A stretch of DNA of 11,098 bases from UHGV virus genome UHGV-0277743; one strand, written 5' to 3'. This document shows, one piece after another, positions 3,006-11,098 of this stretch. How positions within the stretch are numbered: position 1 is the stretch's first letter; every line of letters begins with the position of its first letter. Made by a program: the position numbers and the translations under genes. The notes beneath the pieces were generated by a model. That model did no database searches. It was not told where the DNA came from and saw only the letters and a list, made by a program, of their open reading frames with translations. The stretch is from a virus.

Positions 3006-3100
3006 TGCGTCACCTTTTACGCTGCGCCTTATTTTGTGATTGAGCCAGGCGGTAAGGCTTCCCGCTTTTCGCCCCGTCGAGCTAGGCTCAATCTATTCAG

Positions 3101-4360
3101 TTAGTTCGCCCTTCTGAGAGGCGTTACGTTGTAGTCTTTTCCGCTTTCCAGTGCCACCAGCAGATCAGCCCACAGTGCCAGTGCTGCTTTACGCTCATCA
3201 AAATACTGATGGCGGTTATAAATCCCCTCTACGCCCTTAATGCGATGATTGAGGCATCGTTCCGCCACGACAGGATCAACACCCAACGCTGCTAAATGAG
3301 TACGTGCGGTGCGTCGGAAGTCGTGAATCGTGAAATTAGGCACATCCGGCATTTCGGCGCGAACCTTAGCCAGTGCTACGGGTAAAGTGCTTTCCTGAAT
3401 ATGTGGGATCATTCTGTTTTGCATTTTCCTGGCTGGAAGCACCCATGCGCTATTACATGAAAAGGTGTGTAGCTCTCTCAACCATTCAACGGCTGGGGAA
3501 GGTAGAGGTATATCAATAGGGTCTCCGTTTTTGCTGCGTTCTTCCGGCAAATGCCATACCGCACCATCTAAATCAAACTCTTCCCATCGTGCGGCGCATA
3601 ACTCCATCTTACGAACGCATAGTGCCAGCAATAGCTTAAATGTCAGTTCGTTCTGGCGGCTGAATCCTTTTGCGGTGCGCATAGCCTCGAATAGCCTGAT
3701 AAGCTCATCGCGAGTTAGCCAACGGTCGCGGGAAACCTCTTTACCACCAGCATCAGATACTTCAAACGCTGAACAAGGGTTTATCTCCAGAGCGTGGCGT
3801 TTTATCCCGTAGTCAAAGATACGGCGTGTCCAGCGTAATACATCTGTTGCTATCGTTGGTGCTCCTCGGTCAACGATACCTTTCAACATGTCGTCAATGT
3901 GGCGTGGCTTAACGTCCTCTACCTTCATATGCCCAATGCAGGGGTTAATATCCTTATCAATTCTCCGGCGAAGGATATCGGGATGTTTCCATCTCGGAAG
4001 TATCTGGCGCTCGAAGTATTCGGAGGCCAGATCTGAAACACGCATGGCGTTTTTCTCAGCCTCCATTTTTGCCAGTGCTTCAGCTTTTCGTTCCTGTTTC
4101 TCTGCTGCTACGTCATAGCCAAGAGCAACTCTGGCTGACAGCTCTTTGGCTGTCTCTCTGGCCTTTGATAGTGATAGCTCGCTATACGAACCAATTAGCA
4201 TGGCGCGGGACTTCCCTGCGAGTTTATAGCGGAATCTCCATGTGGGGGTTTTGTCGGCTTCACGGTAACGTAGGTATAAACCGTTACCGTCTGCCCGCCC
4301 CTCGAATCGCTCTCCGCTCTTAATCCATGCGCGGATCTGCATGTCTGTTAGTTTTGGCAT
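3101..4360 (-). CDS. int: tyrosine integrase, P4 family
   Basis: N-terminus MPKLTDMQIRAWIKSGERFEGRADGNGLYLRY matches the arm-binding domain pattern of P4-type integrases. C-terminus carries HDFRRT and CLNHRIKGVEGIYNRHQY (the H-x-x-R and catalytic Tyr region). Start trimmed from the track value 4501 to the ATG at 4358-4360, because the conserved N-terminus begins there and the extension would run through a terminator hairpin. Confidence 0.9.
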   Translation of the reverse strand: MPKLTDMQIRAWIKSGERFEGRADGNGLYLRYREADKTPTWRFRYKLAGKSRAMLIGSYSELSLSKARETAKELSARVALGYDVAAEKQERKAEALAKMEAEKNAMRVSDLASEYFERQILPRWKHPDILRRRIDKDINPCIGHMKVEDVKPRHIDDMLKGIVDRGAPTIATDVLRWTRRIFDYGIKRHALEINPCSAFEVSDAGGKEVSRDRWLTRDELIRLFEAMRTAKGFSRQNELTFKLLLALCVRKMELCAARWEEFDLDGAVWHLPEERSKNGDPIDIPLPSPAVEWLRELHTFSCNSAWVLPARKMQNRMIPHIQESTLPVALAKVRAEMPDVPNFTIHDFRRTARTHLAALGVDPVVAERCLNHRIKGVEGIYNRHQYFDERKAALALWADLLVALESGKDYNVTPLRRAN

Positions 4361-4390
4361 TTTGCGAATATCCAAACTTTGAATAGGGGG

Positions 4391-4442
4391 TGTACCCAAA
4401 GCAATGTACCCAAACCTCATTGGGTACACCTTTGTGTACACC
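4391..4442. promoter_or_regulatory. GTAC-core operator-like repeats in the int promoter region
   Basis: Two TGTACCCAAA copies (4391-4400, 4405-4414) followed by TGGGTACACC-TTT-GTGTACACC (4421-4442). The near-palindrome GGTGTACACC gives dyad symmetry. Sits 30-80 bp upstream of the int start codon. Confidence 0.45.
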
Positions 4443-4482
4443 ATAATCATGCGCTTTGTTGCGTCGTTATGATAGCTCATGA

Positions 4483-4513
4483 TAACAAAAAAGCCCGACA
4501 TTTCGCGGGCTTT
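4483..4513 (-). terminator. intrinsic terminator between the two-gene cassette and int
   Basis: Minus-strand RNA reads AAAGCCCG-cgaaaugu-CGGGCUUU followed by UUUGUUAUC. The same hairpin on the plus strand is followed by TATGGTTTTTT, so it may act in both directions, less well on the plus strand. Confidence 0.55.
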
Positions 4514-4632
4514 ATGGTTTTTTGCTGCTTGGTGATTTTTGCTGATAGCTTATTCGATATTCTGAATCTGTTTATTGAGTATGAGCCTCTATGCTGCGTG
4601 GTTACTGGATTCCTTGTAATGCTTCTTATAAT

Positions 4633-4655
4633 TAGGTACACCCATGTGTACACGG
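4633..4655. promoter_or_regulatory. second copy of the palindromic GGTACACC-n3-GTGTACAC module
   Basis: TAGGTACACC-CAT-GTGTACACGG aligns with 4421-4442 (TGGGTACACC-TTT-GTGTACACC). The GTAC cores are 12 bp apart in both copies. The two copies flank the terminator hairpin. Confidence 0.45.
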
Positions 4656-4791
4656 TATTTTGAGGTGCTGTCTTTGGCTGCTCATTTTATGCTCTCGTGC
4701 TTGCTGTTCTGGGCTACGTGCCAAACCGCAGCGAATACCTCCGTCTGCCAGATGAGCAAAACATACCTTATAAAGAAAATCGCTGTTTTTG

Positions 4792-4894
4792 CTGTACCAC
4801 CTGTACCACCATGTCACAAACCCTTGTGTGACGCGGCCTGCAGGTGGTACAGGTGGGTAAAAATGACCTCTCCCCACCTGTACAGACCTGTACC
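4792..4894. repeat. iteron cluster B with nested inverted repeats (candidate ori or attP core region)
   Basis: The 9-mer GGTACAGGT or its complement occurs at 4799-4807 (-), 4847-4855 (+) and 4886-4894 (-), with related copies at 4792-4798 and 4876-4884. A perfect 14-bp inverted repeat CCACCTGTACCACC (4797-4810) / GGTGGTACAGGTGG (4843-4856) encloses an inner 6-bp inverted repeat GTCACA (4813-4818) / TGTGAC (4827-4832) with an 8-bp spacer. Confidence 0.5.
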
Positions 4895-4900
4895 ATTTAT

Positions 4901-5638
4901 TTAATTTTTACCCATAGCAGCACATAATCCCTTTTTTGAAATATTGAAAAATGCGTTCATTCTTCCCGCTGGCTTAACCTTGTAGCCGCTTGCCACCATC
5001 GCCGCAATAAATGCTCCGTTGGGGATATAGTGCGGGTGATCACTGTGCTGGTGGTTTATCTGGTTATATCGCTCCACTTCATGCTTCAACGTGTCAGATG
5101 TGGGGTTATCCTGCGGGAAGCTCTCAATCTGGGCATTACTCATCCCGTTGTCTCTGATCCATCTCAGGCAGCTTTTCGCCGATACGATAAATGACGGGTT
5201 ATCAAGCGGGTTTTCCCAGTCCGCATTCCGGTTGTGGAGCGCCAGTCCGTCAAGGTTAAATTGTGGGTATTCAGCGGTAATTACTGTCACTGCGTGGCGG
5301 ATTTCAGTCTCGTCACAACATGGCTCATCTCCCACACCAGCAGGGTAATAATCTGAACCACCGGGACTGATACAGCGTTTACCACTGAAAGGCCATTGCT
5401 TCGCCATTTCGGGTGTTGAGTGATTACCGTCGCTCCGTTCGCGCTGTGCCTCTGTCCACTGGCTGGCATATTCAGTAAATGAAACCCTTTGCCCCTGACG
5501 CATCCAGTGCGCAATCATAATTAAAGTGCGTTCCAGACTTTGGATGTCGCCAGCATTCCCGCACTGTGTAGCGAAACTTTTTAATTCTTCGCGCTCCGTT
5601 CTGGTCATTCCCTGCGGTATGCAATAGTTATTGCTCAT
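4901..5638 (-). CDS. hypothetical protein (245 aa), second gene of a two-gene cassette
   Basis: ATG at 5636-5638 preceded by AGAGAGGT with a 5-nt spacer. Overlaps the upstream 76-aa gene by 11 nt. His-rich C-terminal patch (INHQHSDHPHYIPNG). No family recognised. Confidence 0.65.
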   Translation of the reverse strand: MSNNYCIPQGMTRTEREELKSFATQCGNAGDIQSLERTLIMIAHWMRQGQRVSFTEYASQWTEAQRERSDGNHSTPEMAKQWPFSGKRCISPGGSDYYPAGVGDEPCCDETEIRHAVTVITAEYPQFNLDGLALHNRNADWENPLDNPSFIVSAKSCLRWIRDNGMSNAQIESFPQDNPTSDTLKHEVERYNQINHQHSDHPHYIPNGAFIAAMVASGYKVKPAGRMNAFFNISKKGLCAAMGKN

Positions 5639-5858
5639 GTTTTACCTCTCTGATTTCTGCTGCCATATCTGTTGGCTCTATACAGCCGTCCCGACTTGCC
5701 ACGCAGGGAATAATGATTTCAACGGTATCGCCGTCAATACACATTTCAACATTCGCCCATGCCGCAATGGGTAGCCAGTCTGAACGCCCCTCAAACCGTA
5801 GCTGCCAGCCAGAGGAAGAAGCTAACTGGCGCACTTTGTAAAATGGTGTGCTCATCAT
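5628..5858 (-). CDS. hypothetical protein (76 aa), first gene of the two-gene cassette
   Basis: Tandem ATG ATG at 5858-5853 with GAGAGGG 8 nt upstream. Stop overlaps the start of the 245-aa gene. No HTH or other motif recognised. Confidence 0.55.
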   Translation of the reverse strand: MMSTPFYKVRQLASSSGWQLRFEGRSDWLPIAAWANVEMCIDGDTVEIIIPCVASRDGCIEPTDMAAEIREVKHEQ

Positions 5859-5902
5859 TGGTTGTTCCCTCTCAGCCAGCCAGAAGAAATGCGTTTGTTA
5901 AT

Positions 5903-6005
5903 GGTATAGGTGGTACAGGTCTGGTATAGGTAAGACATTGACCTGTACCACTATAACACATTGTTTTTAATGCTGAATTAGCAAAGTGGTATAGGTGGTA
6001 CAGGT
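5903..6005. repeat. iteron cluster A immediately downstream of the primase-helicase gene (crr/ori-like)
   Basis: Identical 18-mer GGTATAGGTGGTACAGGT at 5903-5920 and 5988-6005; partial copy GGTATAGGT at 5923-5931; inverted copy ACCTGTACCACTATA at 5941-5955. The basic unit is the 9-mer GGTAYAGGT. Flanked by AT-rich sequence (6006-6034). Confidence 0.6.
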
Positions 6006-6034
6006 AAAAACGATCTTCTTGTAAAAAGACTATA

Positions 6035-8386
6035 TTAAAAAACATCATAACCCCCCATACCGATCAGACGGGCAAACGCAGCCTGTAGAACTCCGACCTC
6101 TGGTAGTTCGTAGAACACGCCATTCCCTCGGTCTGGTCTTCCATGCTTCACCAGCCCCATTTGTGCAAGTGATTTACCCAGTAGTGATCTGGCAGCTGGT
6201 TCTTTAAGCTTTTCCCCACGCTCAAGCGACCACGCTACAAACCGACTAACCATATCCTTTGCAAACAAACGGACTTCGCCATTAAACGGAGGTTCATTGA
6301 TTAGCTCGCCATAAAGAAACAATTCAACGCCAGACAGCCCCAGCAAGATTTCTTCACGTAAGGCATCGGTCTGTGGCGCTCGTTGAGGGTCAAAACCTGA
6401 GAGATCCACCCCTTTAAGATGCCAAAGCAACTTTGCGGCACCGCCATCATTAAGCCAACTGTACAGCCGATCAAAATACTCCCGGCTCTGTGCTTTTTCA
6501 GGAGATGGCTCAAGCACGAGATAGCGACGCTCTCTTATCCCTGCCTGTAATACCTGTGTGCTGTTACTGGCAAATATCAACCGGGCAAAATTCGGCATTG
6601 GTTCAGCATCAATTCCCTTGCGCTCAAGGTTAAACGTCGGTTCGCTAATAATCGCTTTAAGTCTGTCAGCTTCAGACGGCTTGTGGATCGTCACTTCGTC
6701 AGCAAATACCAGTAGCTTGTTAGCAAGTATTGAATTGAAGCGCCCTGAAATATGTCCCGCCCCGTTAATGTGGGCGGCGTACTGCCCCAGTATTTGCAGC
6801 AGCGGTTTAACCGTTGTGCCTTTCCCTGTGCCCGGGACAGATTTCATCACGATTGCCACGGACGGTTTTTCATCAGGCTTTTGGATAATGTGCGCCATCC
6901 ACTGGATAAGATATTGGTATGCCTCTTCATTACCGGCACAGACAACCTGCAACAGGTGATTAAGGTATACCGTGCAATCTCCTTCAATTGGTTCCAGTGC
7001 CAGCCCCTCATACAGATTAAAAACATCGTCAGGGCATTTGTCTGGTACTGGATAAAATCCTACGCCTCCTGGCTTGTAGTTCTTCCCACTCCATGACAGC
7101 CACGCCGATCCCGCCAGCTTTCTGGCGACTCTCGGTTTATGATGAAAATAATGCTGAAATTGTGATAAATCCTCGAAAACGTGCGATACACCGCCGGTTT
7201 GAGAAGGCTTTAGCGACACCACCTTGTGTTTCCCGCCGATGGTGACATGCGTAAACGTCCGGTTGATTTCTTCGAGGACAGCAATTTCATCATCGCTTAA
7301 CACCTCGCCAGAACTGATCTCATTCAGCGCCCCGACTGACTGTTTGTGATTTTTCACCTGCGCCCCTTTCCCCCGTGGCTGGTACATCGAATCTTTAAAT
7401 GCTGCTGTGGCTGCCGCCAGCCCGTGTTGTTGGTGATAGTCGTTCCAGTCGGCTTTATAGTCAGTCGGTGGCAGAGACACCCAGCCAGCTACGGAAATAG
7501 CGGCCCTCTCTGCGGCATCTTTCCCCGTGTTGATCCCTCCACTTTCGGAGTTTCCTTGCTGGTGATCGTTATCTGCGGCAATGATGATTTGTGCCTGTGG
7601 ATATGTTCTGCGCATGACTTCCGCTACTGGCAACAGGTTGCCAGCGTCGATTGCTGCCACTGTCATTGCGTCAGGGCGAATTAAATGGCACGACAGGGCG
7701 GTAGCCACCCCCTCAGCAATTATGATGCTGTGAGGTCGTTTCTGTGCGTTTATGGCGTGATATGCCCCTCGCTTTGCTGAACCTGTCAGGAGTCTTTTTT
7801 CACCATGTGAGGTAATAGTCTGTGCTGCTGTGACTGCGCCGGATTTATCCACCAGCGCCAGCAACAGAGATCCATCGGGCAACACAGGGAATGTAAAATC
7901 ACCTACCCCTTTCGCAACCAGATAATCAGATTTGCCGTTTACAGCCTTTCTGCGCATGTCATCAAACTGACGGGAAAACGTATCCCGTCTTTGTTGTTCG
8001 TCCTTCTCTGCCCTTTTCAGGCGCTCCTGTTCGCGTCGCTGGCGCTCGGTTTCCAGTTGTTCCCGTTTCTGGCTGGTGGCTTCTGGTGTTTCCGTTGTCC
8101 GGTAATCAATACCCAGAACATCAGCGGCAAGCAGCGCCGCCTCTGTTGTGTCGCAGTTATTTACGCGTTTAATTAAATCCAGCCCATCACCAGCGCCGCA
8201 CTGATTACAGATGAAGCTACCGCGCCCGTTGTCATCGAACCGGAATCGATCTTTGCCCCCACATGCAGGGCAGGGAGCATGACGGCGCGGAGAGTCAGGG
8301 ACATTTATGTTCAGGCAGCCCAGCACATGAGGCCAGTTGTTTTCAGACGCACTGATAACCTGACGGATAAGATCAATGTTTCGCAT
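6035..8386 (-). CDS. bifunctional DNA primase-helicase, P4 alpha-like
   Basis: 783 aa from the ATG at 8384-8386 (the track starts one codon earlier at a GTG). N-terminal zinc ribbon CPACGGKD..CNQCGAGDG; Toprim motifs IIIAEGVATALS and IIIAADND; Walker A VPGTGKGT and Walker B LLVFADEV. GGGG SD 7 nt upstream. Resemblance to P4 alpha in length and domain order is from memory. Confidence 0.9.
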   Translation of the reverse strand: MRNIDLIRQVISASENNWPHVLGCLNINVPDSPRRHAPCPACGGKDRFRFDDNGRGSFICNQCGAGDGLDLIKRVNNCDTTEAALLAADVLGIDYRTTETPEATSQKREQLETERQRREQERLKRAEKDEQQRRDTFSRQFDDMRRKAVNGKSDYLVAKGVGDFTFPVLPDGSLLLALVDKSGAVTAAQTITSHGEKRLLTGSAKRGAYHAINAQKRPHSIIIAEGVATALSCHLIRPDAMTVAAIDAGNLLPVAEVMRRTYPQAQIIIAADNDHQQGNSESGGINTGKDAAERAAISVAGWVSLPPTDYKADWNDYHQQHGLAAATAAFKDSMYQPRGKGAQVKNHKQSVGALNEISSGEVLSDDEIAVLEEINRTFTHVTIGGKHKVVSLKPSQTGGVSHVFEDLSQFQHYFHHKPRVARKLAGSAWLSWSGKNYKPGGVGFYPVPDKCPDDVFNLYEGLALEPIEGDCTVYLNHLLQVVCAGNEEAYQYLIQWMAHIIQKPDEKPSVAIVMKSVPGTGKGTTVKPLLQILGQYAAHINGAGHISGRFNSILANKLLVFADEVTIHKPSEADRLKAIISEPTFNLERKGIDAEPMPNFARLIFASNSTQVLQAGIRERRYLVLEPSPEKAQSREYFDRLYSWLNDGGAAKLLWHLKGVDLSGFDPQRAPQTDALREEILLGLSGVELFLYGELINEPPFNGEVRLFAKDMVSRFVAWSLERGEKLKEPAARSLLGKSLAQMGLVKHGRPDRGNGVFYELPEVGVLQAAFARLIGMGGYDVF

Positions 8387-8744
8387 CACCGTACCCCACG
8401 TGGTCTATAGCGTTTGCGATATGGCTAACCAGCATCTGCCACTTGGTTATTCCGTAATCAGTCAGCATGCCATCATTGTTTAGCCACATATCAAATTCAG
8501 CGGTTGTCGCAAGTTTCCACTTATCGCCGTGGACAGTCCTCATTGCTGGGTACATGAATGCGCAAATCAGATCACAAACATCTGACGGCTTCAGAGATGT
8601 AGTAATGGTGCGTCCCTCTGGCGTCTGAATTGCCATTTTCTCTTCACCAGTAGAATGAAGGTTATGAATCCACACAGCACCAGCAATCTTTGCCACCTGC
8701 TCTCCGATTGCGGAGCTAAGCGCCATTTCTGCATTTTCACGCAT
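8373..8744 (-). CDS. hypothetical protein (123 aa), early operon
   Basis: ATG at 8742-8744 overlaps the upstream stop; its own stop overlaps the alpha start by 14 nt. No motif recognised. Confidence 0.6.
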   Translation of the reverse strand: MRENAEMALSSAIGEQVAKIAGAVWIHNLHSTGEEKMAIQTPEGRTITTSLKPSDVCDLICAFMYPAMRTVHGDKWKLATTAEFDMWLNNDGMLTDYGITKWQMLVSHIANAIDHVGYGDAKH

Positions 8745-10754: not shown

Positions 10755-10913
10755 GTGGCAGCCTCTGATTCATGGTTTTGAGAACCACCACCGGAAACGC
10801 CAATTTCGCTGGTGGTGAACTGTACAGGGTTGGCGTAACCGGGAATCAGAGAAACCGGCGCGGATTGCTCCGCCCCCATACAGTCCACCATTGAACAGGT
10901 GTAACTGCGCGGC

Positions 10914-10939
10914 ACAAAAAAACACGCATGGCGCGTGTT
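10914..10939 (-). terminator. intrinsic terminator in the leader upstream of the early operon (candidate attenuator)
   Basis: Minus-strand RNA reads AACACGC-gccau-GCGUGUU followed by UUUUUGU, and the stem can extend with GCACAA/UUGUGC. Lies about 160 nt upstream of the first early gene. Confidence 0.45.
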
Positions 10940-11000
10940 GTGCGCTCTGATAATTACCGGGACGCCAATCCCGACACCAGATTTTGCTGGTGCGCTATAA

Positions 11001-11043: not shown

Positions 11044-11098
11044 ACTCCGAAAACTCACTATTGGAAGCACCAGATGCACAATACATCGCGCTCATTTC

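What the first reader, a model, noticed from the sequence alone, without database searches (positions are those of the whole stretch)
5903..6005. Iteron cluster directly downstream of the primase-helicase gene
The same 18-mer (GGTATAGGTGGTACAGGT) occurs twice in direct orientation, with an inverted and a partial copy in between, all built from the 9-mer GGTAYAGGT. Direct plus inverted iterons next to a replication initiator gene are the hallmark of a cis-acting replication site. In P4 the alpha protein binds octamer iterons at ori and crr; as I recall that octamer is TGTTCACC, so this element would use a different recognition sequence.
Basis: partly seen in the sequence, partly recalled or inferred. 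Interest (0 to 1): 0.5.

Follow-up and report, generated by a model that had tools for sequence, protein, structure and literature searches.

The report
Satellite replication origin beside its primase-helicase
The repeats are real and are most likely half of the replication origin of a small phage-satellite island, bound by the neighbouring primase-helicase; this is a new example of a known kind of origin, not a new mechanism.

Summary
GGTAYAGGT occurs 9 times in the window (0.07 expected). Six copies lie at 5903-6005, starting 29 bp after the stop of the primase-helicase gene (6035-8389, minus strand). The rest form a mirror-image cluster at 4790-4894.

- In 31 loci with homologues of the helicase and C-terminal module (28-76% identity, several gammaproteobacterial orders), TGGTAYAGnT is 34-fold enriched just 3' of the gene. 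Order, orientation and spacing are conserved.
- Sibling E. coli elements keep AlpA, AntA and the primase N-domain (87-100% identical) but carry a DUF927 helicase module. They have no GGTAYAGGT and instead carry GTTGGTTCA repeats.
- An island whose integrase is only 29% identical keeps both clusters unchanged.
- The C-terminal domain models as a winged helix.
- The layout matches the experimentally validated EcCICFT073 PICI origin.

The element is an EcCIMP1-like satellite captured as a circular permutation. Here two genes separate the two origin halves.

Verdict: a new member of a known kind, of modest interest.

The parts
5988..6005 (+). Iteron pair nearest the gene: GGTATAGGT and GGTACAGGT in tandem at 9-bp spacing, 29 bp after the primase-helicase stop codon.
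   Evidence: The same pair sits at about +20 to +40 from the stop in homologous loci.
5950..5987 (.). AT-rich spacer (26% GC) between the two iteron sets of cluster 1; candidate DNA melting site.
   Evidence: An AT-rich spacer of about 40 bp sits at the same place in L004, L009, L017, L019, L024, L025 and in EcCICFT073.
5941..5949 (-). Single iteron GGTACAGGT in the opposite orientation.
   Evidence: It is conserved at about +72 to +86 from the stop in relatives.
5903..5931 (+). Three iterons: GGTATAGGT, GGTACAGGT, then after 2 bp GGTATAGGT.
   Evidence: The conserved counterpart lies at about +100 to +125 in relatives.
4790..4894 (.). Mirror-image second half of the origin. By GGTAYAGGT orientation it holds copies at 4886- and 4876- (TGTACAGGT), 4846+, and 4799- and 4790- (GGTACAGCA). 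It starts 7 bp after the stop of orf245.
   Evidence: The same [pair]-[single inverted]-[pair] layout occurs in L004, L007, L008, L011, L012, L017, L018 and EcCICFT073.
4808..4845 (.). GC-rich spacer (58% GC) inside the second half. It contains a small hairpin (GTCACA-N8-TGTGAC) and the box CTGCAGGCCGCG, which recurs in related origins.
   Evidence: Its function is unexplained (note written).
6035..8389 (-). Primase-helicase gene, the presumed initiator. Domains: Zn-ribbon and Toprim primase, DUF5906 (D5-like, SF3-type) helicase, and a C-terminal domain whose last 80 or so residues (about aa 705-784, roughly nt 6038-6277) model as a winged helix.
4901..5858 (-). orf76 (5628-5858) and orf245 (4901-5638), two genes of unknown function nested between the two origin halves.
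   Evidence: The slot holds no gene in L017, L018, L011 and L012, one gene (an orf76 homologue) in Xenorhabdus, and two in the window and L004.

Best explanation
The repeats at 5903-6005 are origin iterons. Together with the mirror-image cluster at 4790-4894 they form the vegetative replication origin of an EcCIMP1-like, P4-related phage satellite. The proposed mechanism follows.

1. After induction the primase-helicase is made. Its C-terminal winged-helix domain binds the TGGTAYAGGT sites, which lie in tandem pairs 9 bp apart and in both orientations. This step is inferred.
2. Bound protein assembles into helicase rings and opens the 26%-GC spacer at 5950-5987. This step is inferred.
3. The protein's own Toprim primase domain lays down primers, and host DNA polymerase III extends them, as in P4. 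This step is inferred by analogy.

What is shown here: the sites exist far above chance; their order, orientation and spacing are conserved next to homologues of the helicase and C-terminal module; their sequence changes when that module changes; and no other gene of the element follows them. It is unresolved whether the two halves, 1 kb apart here, act together by looping or whether one is a regulatory copy, like P4 crr.
For: 1. Chance is excluded: 9 matches against 0.07 expected.
2. In 31 loci with homologues of the protein, GGTAYAG has a density of 7.6 per kb in the 650 bp after the stop, against 0.23 per kb elsewhere. That is 34-fold (binomial p about 1e-126), and 23 of 31 loci have at least 3 copies.
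3. The layout relative to the stop is shared: two copies, a spacer of about 40 bp (AT-rich in most loci printed), one inverted copy, two or three copies, then a mirror cluster. The window reads 30-, 39-, 86+, 104-, 115-, 124- and then 1141+, 1151+, 1181-, 1228+, 1237+. Xenorhabdus, Buttiauxella, Methylomonas, Methylobacter and Glaciecola share it in full; Alishewanella has a shortened two-pair version.
4. Only the helicase and the C-terminal 144 aa are shared by these loci. The integrase, AlpA, orf76, orf245 and often the N-terminal primase domain are absent.
5. A natural module swap exists. In L038 and L039, AlpA is 98.5-100% identical, AntA 99%, orf143 98% and the primase N-domain 87%, but the helicase module is DUF927. 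These loci contain no GGTAYAGGT in 10.7 kb. Instead they carry three GTTGGTTCA, an AT-rich spacer and three TGAACCAAC right after the gene.
6. The most diverged homologues have other repeats in the same 9-bp tandem format: GGAACAG in L022, AGGTTGGCG in L029, GTGGCAAG in L035. They also differ in the conserved 'PAARS..GK' helix and 'GR..RG.G..YELP' hairpin.
8. EcCICFT073 has the same layout with different iterons (GGTAGAYAG). Its pri-rep-ori segment was shown to drive plasmid maintenance (PMC6092414).
9. In the 7.6-kb plasmid pMP1, a homologue of the helicase and C-terminal module is the only replication-type gene among the five CDS shown (the view covers 6.1 kb; the record has seven features). 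It is followed by TTTCCAC iterons in the same format.
Against: There is no experimental binding or replication data for this element or this iteron.

The fold matches are to generic winged-helix domains. Foldseek E-values are weak (at least 0.05), and the P4 alpha origin-binding domain itself was not among the hits.

In close E. coli relatives orf76 and orf245 always travel with the helicase module. Their exclusion as the binding protein therefore rests on the distant loci, where tblastn could miss very diverged small proteins.

The inverted iterons give the transcript a stable hairpin (z = -4.0), so an RNA-level role is not formally excluded.

Eight of the 31 loci show few or no GGTAYAG copies.
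Confidence: 0.85

Rival explanations
1. The repeats are arm-type binding sites of the tyrosine integrase and form part of attP.
For: Cluster 2 lies about 220-340 bp from the att crossover region (about 4550-4570). The integrase has an Arm-DNA-binding domain. P4 integrase arm sites also come in tandem pairs. The iteron shares GTAC with the likely true arm sites.
Against: An E. coli island (L001) whose integrase is only 29% identical and targets tRNA-Thr keeps both clusters (1.4 kb at 99.9% identity), far from its own att sites. Cluster 1 is 1.3 kb from the core. The repeats recur next to helicase homologues in loci with no integrase within 5 kb. A better candidate arm motif, KGTACMC, exists on both arms at 4390-4441 (four copies) and 4634-4653 (two copies).
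Confidence: 0.02
2. The repeats are operators for AlpA (an excisionase-like regulator) or another regulator of the element, controlling orf76/orf245 or int.
For: AlpA is the master activator in Gram-negative PICIs (PMC6092414, PMC11773190). Excisionase-type proteins bind direct repeats on one att arm and at promoters. Cluster 1 lies just upstream of orf76.
Against: L039 has a 100% identical AlpA, and near-identical AntA, orf143 and small ORFs, yet has no GGTAYAGGT at all. The repeats persist in distant loci without detectable AlpA. No sigma-70-like promoter is predicted in cluster 1.
Confidence: 0.04
3. The inverted copies act at the RNA level, as a hairpin that terminates, attenuates or stabilises the primase transcript.
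For: The minus-strand RNA of 5880-6034 folds to -34.3 kcal/mol with z = -4.0. The site is at the 3' end of a gene.
Against: No U-run follows the stem and no terminator is predicted there. Most copies are direct repeats outside any stem. The same motif recurs in a second cluster 1 kb away. Rfam has no match there. The hairpin arms are the iterons themselves, so the fold is a by-product of their inverted arrangement.
Confidence: 0.03
4. The clusters are a packaging (pac or terminase small-subunit binding) or partition site rather than an origin.
For: Satellites need a packaging signal. No P2/P4-type cos site was found in the window. Terminase and centromere sites are often repeat arrays.
Against: The motif follows the helicase and C-terminal module across taxa with different mobile contexts, including a small plasmid. 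It also matches the layout of an origin validated by experiment. No terminase or partition gene lies nearby.
Confidence: 0.03

Closest known systems
PICI-type replication origin, validated for EcCICFT073 (Fillol-Salom et al. 2018, PMC6092414) and first defined in staphylococcal SaPIs
   Same: It lies immediately 3' of the pri-rep gene and has two sets of short iterons flanking an AT-rich stretch. Read directly, the EcCICFT073 origin (L037 12000-12245) has the same order as the window: a pair, about 40 bp of AT-rich DNA, one inverted copy, three copies, then a mirror cluster of pair, single inverted copy, GC-rich spacer and pair. The element also has the Gram-negative PICI gene order int-alpA-...-primase, all on one strand.
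   Different: The iteron is GGTAYAGGT rather than GGTAGAYAG. The initiator has no BLASTP similarity to the EcCICFT073 primase; it is a DUF5906 helicase instead of a P4-alpha-like one. Here the two halves are 1.0 kb apart with two genes between them rather than adjacent.
Phage P4 alpha protein with its ori and crr sites
   Same: The initiator is one polypeptide with primase, helicase and a C-terminal DNA-binding part. The N-terminal 335 aa are 33% identical to alpha. The site lies directly 3' of the gene, between it and attP and int, exactly where crr lies in P4. The repeats are short, in tandem pairs 9 bp apart plus inverted copies. There are two separated clusters. The element carries P4-type C4 and isrK immunity RNAs.
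   Different: The recognition sequence differs: TGTTCACC is absent. The helicase and C-terminal parts show no sequence similarity to alpha. The clusters are 1 kb apart and mirror images, not 4.5 kb apart with crr made of two 120-bp direct repeats. No sid, delta, psu or cos was found.
EcCIMP1, an E. coli PICI mobilised by the P22-like phage Kapi1 (PMC11773190)
   Same: The backbone is the same: AlpA, orf143, AntA antirepressor, DUF4222, Ash and the small ORFs. These are 96-98% identical in DNA over the shared parts.
   Different: EcCIMP1 carries the TOPRIM-DUF927 primase-helicase. This is the module that in L038 and L039 is followed by GTTGGTTCA iterons. It uses another integrase (tRNA-Thr) and has ejection-protein cargo. 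Its paper does not describe an origin: 'iteron' occurs 0 times.
Classical plasmid iteron origins (RepA, pi or TrfA type: pSC101, R6K, RK2, P1)
   Same: Repeated initiator-binding sites lie next to an AT-rich unwinding element, close to the initiator gene.
   Different: Those iterons are about 17-22 bp, mostly in one orientation, bound by winged-helix Rep proteins that recruit host DnaB, and usually accompanied by DnaA boxes (from general knowledge). Here the sites are 9 bp, in both orientations, next to a self-contained primase-helicase, with no DnaA box or IHF consensus in the clusters.

Membership tests
PICI-type origin (pri-rep followed by ori) | The origin lies immediately 3' of the replication initiator gene. 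| tested here: met
   The first iteron starts 29 bp after the stop codon. The same position is seen in 23 of 31 homologous loci.
PICI-type origin (pri-rep followed by ori) | Two sets of iterons flank an AT-rich region. | tested here: met
   Iterons at 5903-5949 and 5988-6005 flank 5950-5987, which is 26% GC. The layout matches EcCICFT073 copy for copy.
PICI-type origin (pri-rep followed by ori) | The cloned initiator plus ori drives replication, and deleting either abolishes it. | not testable with these tools
   This was done for EcCICFT073 only (PMC6092414). Indirect support comes from plasmid pMP1, which has a homologous module as the only replication-type gene among its annotated CDS that were viewed.
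PICI-type origin (pri-rep followed by ori) | The host element is a PICI: int, alpA, one-directional transcription, helper-phage induction. | tested here: inconclusive
   The int, alpA and primase genes are all on one strand, and the backbone is shared with the proven PICI EcCIMP1. Helper dependence was not testable. The P4-type C4 and isrK RNAs are also present.
P4 alpha / ori-crr system | The iteron is the type I octamer TGTTCACC. | tested here: not met
   There are 0 matches in the window. The motif here is GGTAYAGGT.
P4 alpha / ori-crr system | The initiator is homologous to alpha over its primase, helicase and origin-binding domains. | tested here: not met
   Only residues 8-338 align, at 33% identity. 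The helicase and C-terminal parts show no significant similarity. Pfam assigns DUF5906. The C-terminal fold is a generic winged helix, and the P4 domain was not recovered.
P4 alpha / ori-crr system | Two separate cis sites (ori and crr) are both required, with crr just 3' of the gene. | tested here: inconclusive
   Two clusters exist, and cluster 1 sits where crr sits. Comparison suggests they are halves of one origin that is contiguous in other lineages. Whether both are required is not testable here.
Integrase arm-type sites of attP | The sites lie on the att arms and co-vary with the integrase. | tested here: not met
   The clusters are unchanged in an island whose integrase is 29% identical, and are present in loci lacking an integrase.
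AlpA or excisionase operator | The sites co-occur with the cognate regulator. | tested here: not met
   L039 has an identical AlpA, yet no GGTAYAGGT is present there.

The most novel reading that the evidence does not exclude
The two mirror-image clusters may be the two halves of a single origin that this lineage has split by inserting one or two genes (orf76, orf245) into its centre. The origin would then have to work by looping 1 kb of DNA between initiator assemblies, much as P4 ori and crr do, and the interior of the origin would serve as a cargo slot. A further possibility concerns the GC-rich box CTRCAGGCCGCGCCA in the second half. It is shared with the EcCICFT073 origin even though the iterons and initiators are unrelated, so it could be a common host-factor or priming signal of satellite origins.
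Probability: 0.3. Interest if true: 0.5.

Novelty: new member of a known kind. Interest (0 to 1): 0.35.

Why it matters
It gives a concrete, testable origin and recognition motif (TGGTAYAGnT) for a widespread family of DUF5906 primase-helicases. These occur in E. coli satellites related to EcCIMP1 and in elements from several other gammaproteobacterial orders. The paired swap of helicase module and iterons between otherwise identical satellites shows that the replicon is exchanged as a cassette. This bears on incompatibility between co-resident satellites and on annotating their origins. It does not change current understanding of how such origins work.

Tried and rejected
- Integrase arm sites were rejected. 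An island with a 29%-identical integrase keeps both clusters, and a different motif (KGTACMC) sits on both att arms.
- An AlpA or regulator operator was rejected through the natural module swap in L038 and L039.
- A terminator or RNA element was considered. The transcript has a stable hairpin, but there is no U-tract, no predicted terminator and no Rfam family in the region.
- A DnaA- or IHF-assisted origin was checked. No consensus boxes occur in or near the clusters.
- A P2/P4 cos site was sought and none was found.
- A PDB sequence search found only the helicase domain.
- The iteron sequences of Fig. 2a of PMC6092414 are not in the held text or supplements. I therefore could not check whether this exact iteron was already drawn there.
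- A full-text search for GGTACAGGT together with 'iteron' found no paper.
- A scan for the attP junction sequence in viral contigs found nothing.
- Uniqueness of the 18-mer was rejected. It occurs singly in 14 unrelated viral contigs.

Full report
**Observation.** All genes in the window are on the minus strand. The primase-helicase ORF runs from 8389 to 6035. On the plus strand the 18-mer GGTATAGGTGGTACAGGT occurs exactly at 5903-5920 and 5988-6005. A further GGTATAGGT lies at 5923-5931 and an inverted GGTACAGGT at 5941-5949. GGTAYAGGT has 9 exact matches in the window against 0.07 expected. The three matches outside the reported interval form a second cluster at 4790-4894, which also holds two near-copies.

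**Context.** Pfam finds a zinc-ribbon primase motif, Toprim and DUF5906 in the 784-aa protein. It also finds a P4-type integrase with an arm-binding domain at 3101-4360, an AlpA homologue at 1722-1925 and an AntA antirepressor at 445-1278. Rfam finds C4 antisense RNA, isrK and the int-alpA RNA.

E. coli chromosomes carry the same element integrated next to yicC (L003). There, window positions 11098 and 1 are contiguous, and the match breaks between window 4570 and 4701. The window is therefore a circular permutation of the island, meaning the excised form or a tandem junction. Its attP lies between int and cluster 2. The backbone is that of EcCIMP1, a PICI mobilised by a P22-like phage. No P2/P4 cos, sid, delta or psu was found.

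**What the repeats go with.** I fetched 32 loci from one-genome-per-species collections that encode relatives of the protein; the statistics below use the 31 whose stop codon and downstream DNA were available. The family core GGTAYAG is 34-fold denser in the 650 bp after the stop codon than elsewhere in these loci: 152 copies in 19.9 kb against 64 in 283 kb. Of the 31 loci, 23 have at least three copies there, and the consensus is TGGTAYAGnT.

The arrangement is also conserved. Counted from the stop on the gene's strand, the window reads 30-, 39-, 86+, 104-, 115-, 124-, then 1141+, 1151+, 1181-, 1228+, 1237+. Xenorhabdus loci read 27-, 72+, 102-, 113-, then 410+, 450-, 495+, 504+. Buttiauxella massiliensis reads 18-, 27-, 73+, 93-, 104-, 113-, then 137+, 146+, 164-, 178-, 223+, 232+. 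Methylomonas and Methylobacter loci follow the same scheme.

A tblastn table shows that only the helicase and the C-terminal 144 residues are shared by these loci. The integrase, AlpA, orf76, orf245 and, in many loci, even the N-terminal primase domain are missing.

**Natural swaps.** Three comparisons bear on which protein reads the repeats.
- An E. coli island at tRNA-Thr (L001) has an integrase only 29% identical to the window's. It still keeps both clusters within a 1.4-kb stretch that is 99.9% identical, several kb from its own ends. This excludes integrase arm sites. Likelier arm sites (KGTACMC) sit on both sides of the crossover region at 4390-4441 and 4634-4653.
- The sibling elements L038 and L039 have AlpA 98.5-100%, AntA 99%, orf143 98%, several small ORFs 91-100% and the primase N-domain 87% identical to the window. 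Their helicase and C-terminal module is replaced by a DUF927 type. They contain no GGTAYAGGT in 10.7 kb. Right after the gene they carry three GTTGGTTCA at 9-bp spacing, an AT-rich spacer and three inverted copies. This excludes AlpA and the other shared proteins and ties specificity to the swapped module.
- The most diverged homologues keep the 9-bp tandem, two-orientation format but with other words: GGAACAG in L022, AGGTTGGCG in L029, GTGGCAAG in L035. They also differ in the otherwise conserved 'PAARS..GK' helix and 'GR..RG.G..YELP' hairpin of the C-terminal domain.

From established knowledge, the P4 alpha protein binds its iterons through a C-terminal winged-helix domain. That structure was not among the hits, so the parallel is one of fold class only. 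The helicase part matches a D5-like primase-helicase structure by sequence. A 7.6-kb Vibrio vulnificus plasmid has a 34%-identical homologue of the helicase and C-terminal module as the only replication-type gene among the five CDS shown (6.1 kb viewed; the record has seven features). That gene is followed by TTTCCAC repeats in the same format.

**Comparison with known systems.** Fillol-Salom et al. [quoted passage not shown] They showed that the EcCICFT073 pri-rep-ori segment maintains a plasmid (PMC6092414). I read that origin directly (L037 12000-12245). It has the same order of sites as the window, including the mirror half, but with GGTAGAYAG iterons and an initiator without detectable similarity to this one.

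P4 crr occupies the same genomic position, between alpha and attP, and also uses 9-bp-spaced pairs plus inverted copies. However, only the N-terminal primase domain of alpha is related (33%), and the octamer is absent.

The finding is therefore a new member of a known kind of origin. I found no paper giving this iteron. The iteron sequences drawn in Fig. 2a of the 2018 paper are not in the held text, so I could not check them.

**Mechanism and open points.** The most likely reading is that the winged-helix domain binds the iterons, the helicase assembles and opens the 26%-GC spacer at 5950-5987, and the protein's own primase starts synthesis. All of these steps are inferred.

No terminator or promoter is predicted between the gene and orf76, so transcription probably reads through the origin. 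The inverted iterons make the transcript fold stably (z = -4.0); I regard this as a by-product.

In this lineage and in Buttiauxella the two halves are separated by orf76 and orf245. In Xenorhabdus they are separated by an orf76 homologue alone. In other lineages nothing lies between them. Whether the split origin needs both halves is unknown.

The second half carries a GC-rich spacer with a box, CTRCAGGCCGCGCCA, that recurs in related origins and in EcCICFT073. It has no explanation yet.

**Verdict.** It is a new member of a known kind, of modest interest.

Noticed in passing
window 1 and 11098; 4360-4790: The window is a circular permutation of an island found integrated next to yicC in E. 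coli. Positions 11098 and 1 are contiguous in L003, and the ash gene is split by the window ends. The att junction lies between 4570 and 4701, and 4551-4570 match the 3' end of yicC. The window is therefore an excised circle or a tandem junction of about 11.1 kb.
   Followed up: partly
window 4390-4441 and 4634-4653: The motif KGTACMC is repeated four times upstream of int and twice on the other side of the crossover region. These are likely the true integrase arm-type sites. They share GTAC with the iterons, which may be coincidence.
   Followed up: partly
window 4808-4845 and 4768-4789: There is a GC-rich spacer with a small hairpin and the box CTGCAGGCCGCG, followed after the last iteron pair by a GCAAAAAnnGCGnTTTT tract. 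Both recur in related origins, and the box appears even in EcCICFT073, which has unrelated iterons and initiator. Xenorhabdus lacks them.
   Followed up: partly
L038 6783-6895; L040 (EcCIMP1): Sibling E. coli satellites, including the published EcCIMP1, carry a TOPRIM-DUF927 primase-helicase. In the two siblings read here (L038, L039) the gene is followed by its own iterons (GTTGGTTCA). The replicon is exchanged as a cassette on a near-identical backbone.
   Followed up: yes
window 5628-5858 (orf76): A 76-aa protein with no family match is conserved (41-74% identity) directly after cluster 1 in Buttiauxella, Pantoea and Xenorhabdus. It always lies inside the origin, between the two halves where both are present. 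It could be a replication accessory protein.
   Followed up: no
window 10808-10993 and 3026-3092: Rfam finds C4 antisense RNA, isrK and the int-alpA RNA, which are P4-type regulatory RNAs. The element nevertheless has no sid, delta, psu or cos and shares the backbone of a PICI mobilised by a P22-like phage. It blurs the P4-like and PICI categories.
   Followed up: partly
L001 4849-8598; L003 1-2598; L040 12632-18827: Integrated relatives carry P22-type DNA ejection protein genes as cargo just beyond cluster 2, preceded by a diverged copy of the window's att-arm sequence. The window's element lacks this cargo.
   Followed up: no
L041 2180-2480 (plasmid pMP1, Vibrio vulnificus): A 7.6-kb plasmid has a homologue of the helicase and C-terminal module (34% identity) as the only replication-type gene among the five CDS viewed. 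It is followed by TTTCCAC repeats at 9-bp spacing in both orientations around AT-rich DNA.
   Followed up: partly
L042-L059 (IMG/VR contigs): Fourteen viral contigs contain one isolated copy of the 18-mer with no primase homologue and no cluster. This is more than I would expect by chance (my rough estimate). They may lie in a conserved coding sequence, since the 18-mer can encode G-I-G-G-T-G.
   Followed up: no
window 4490-4513: A strong two-directional terminator hairpin lies between int and the crossover region. It probably terminates the rebuilt yicC 3' end after integration.
   Followed up: no
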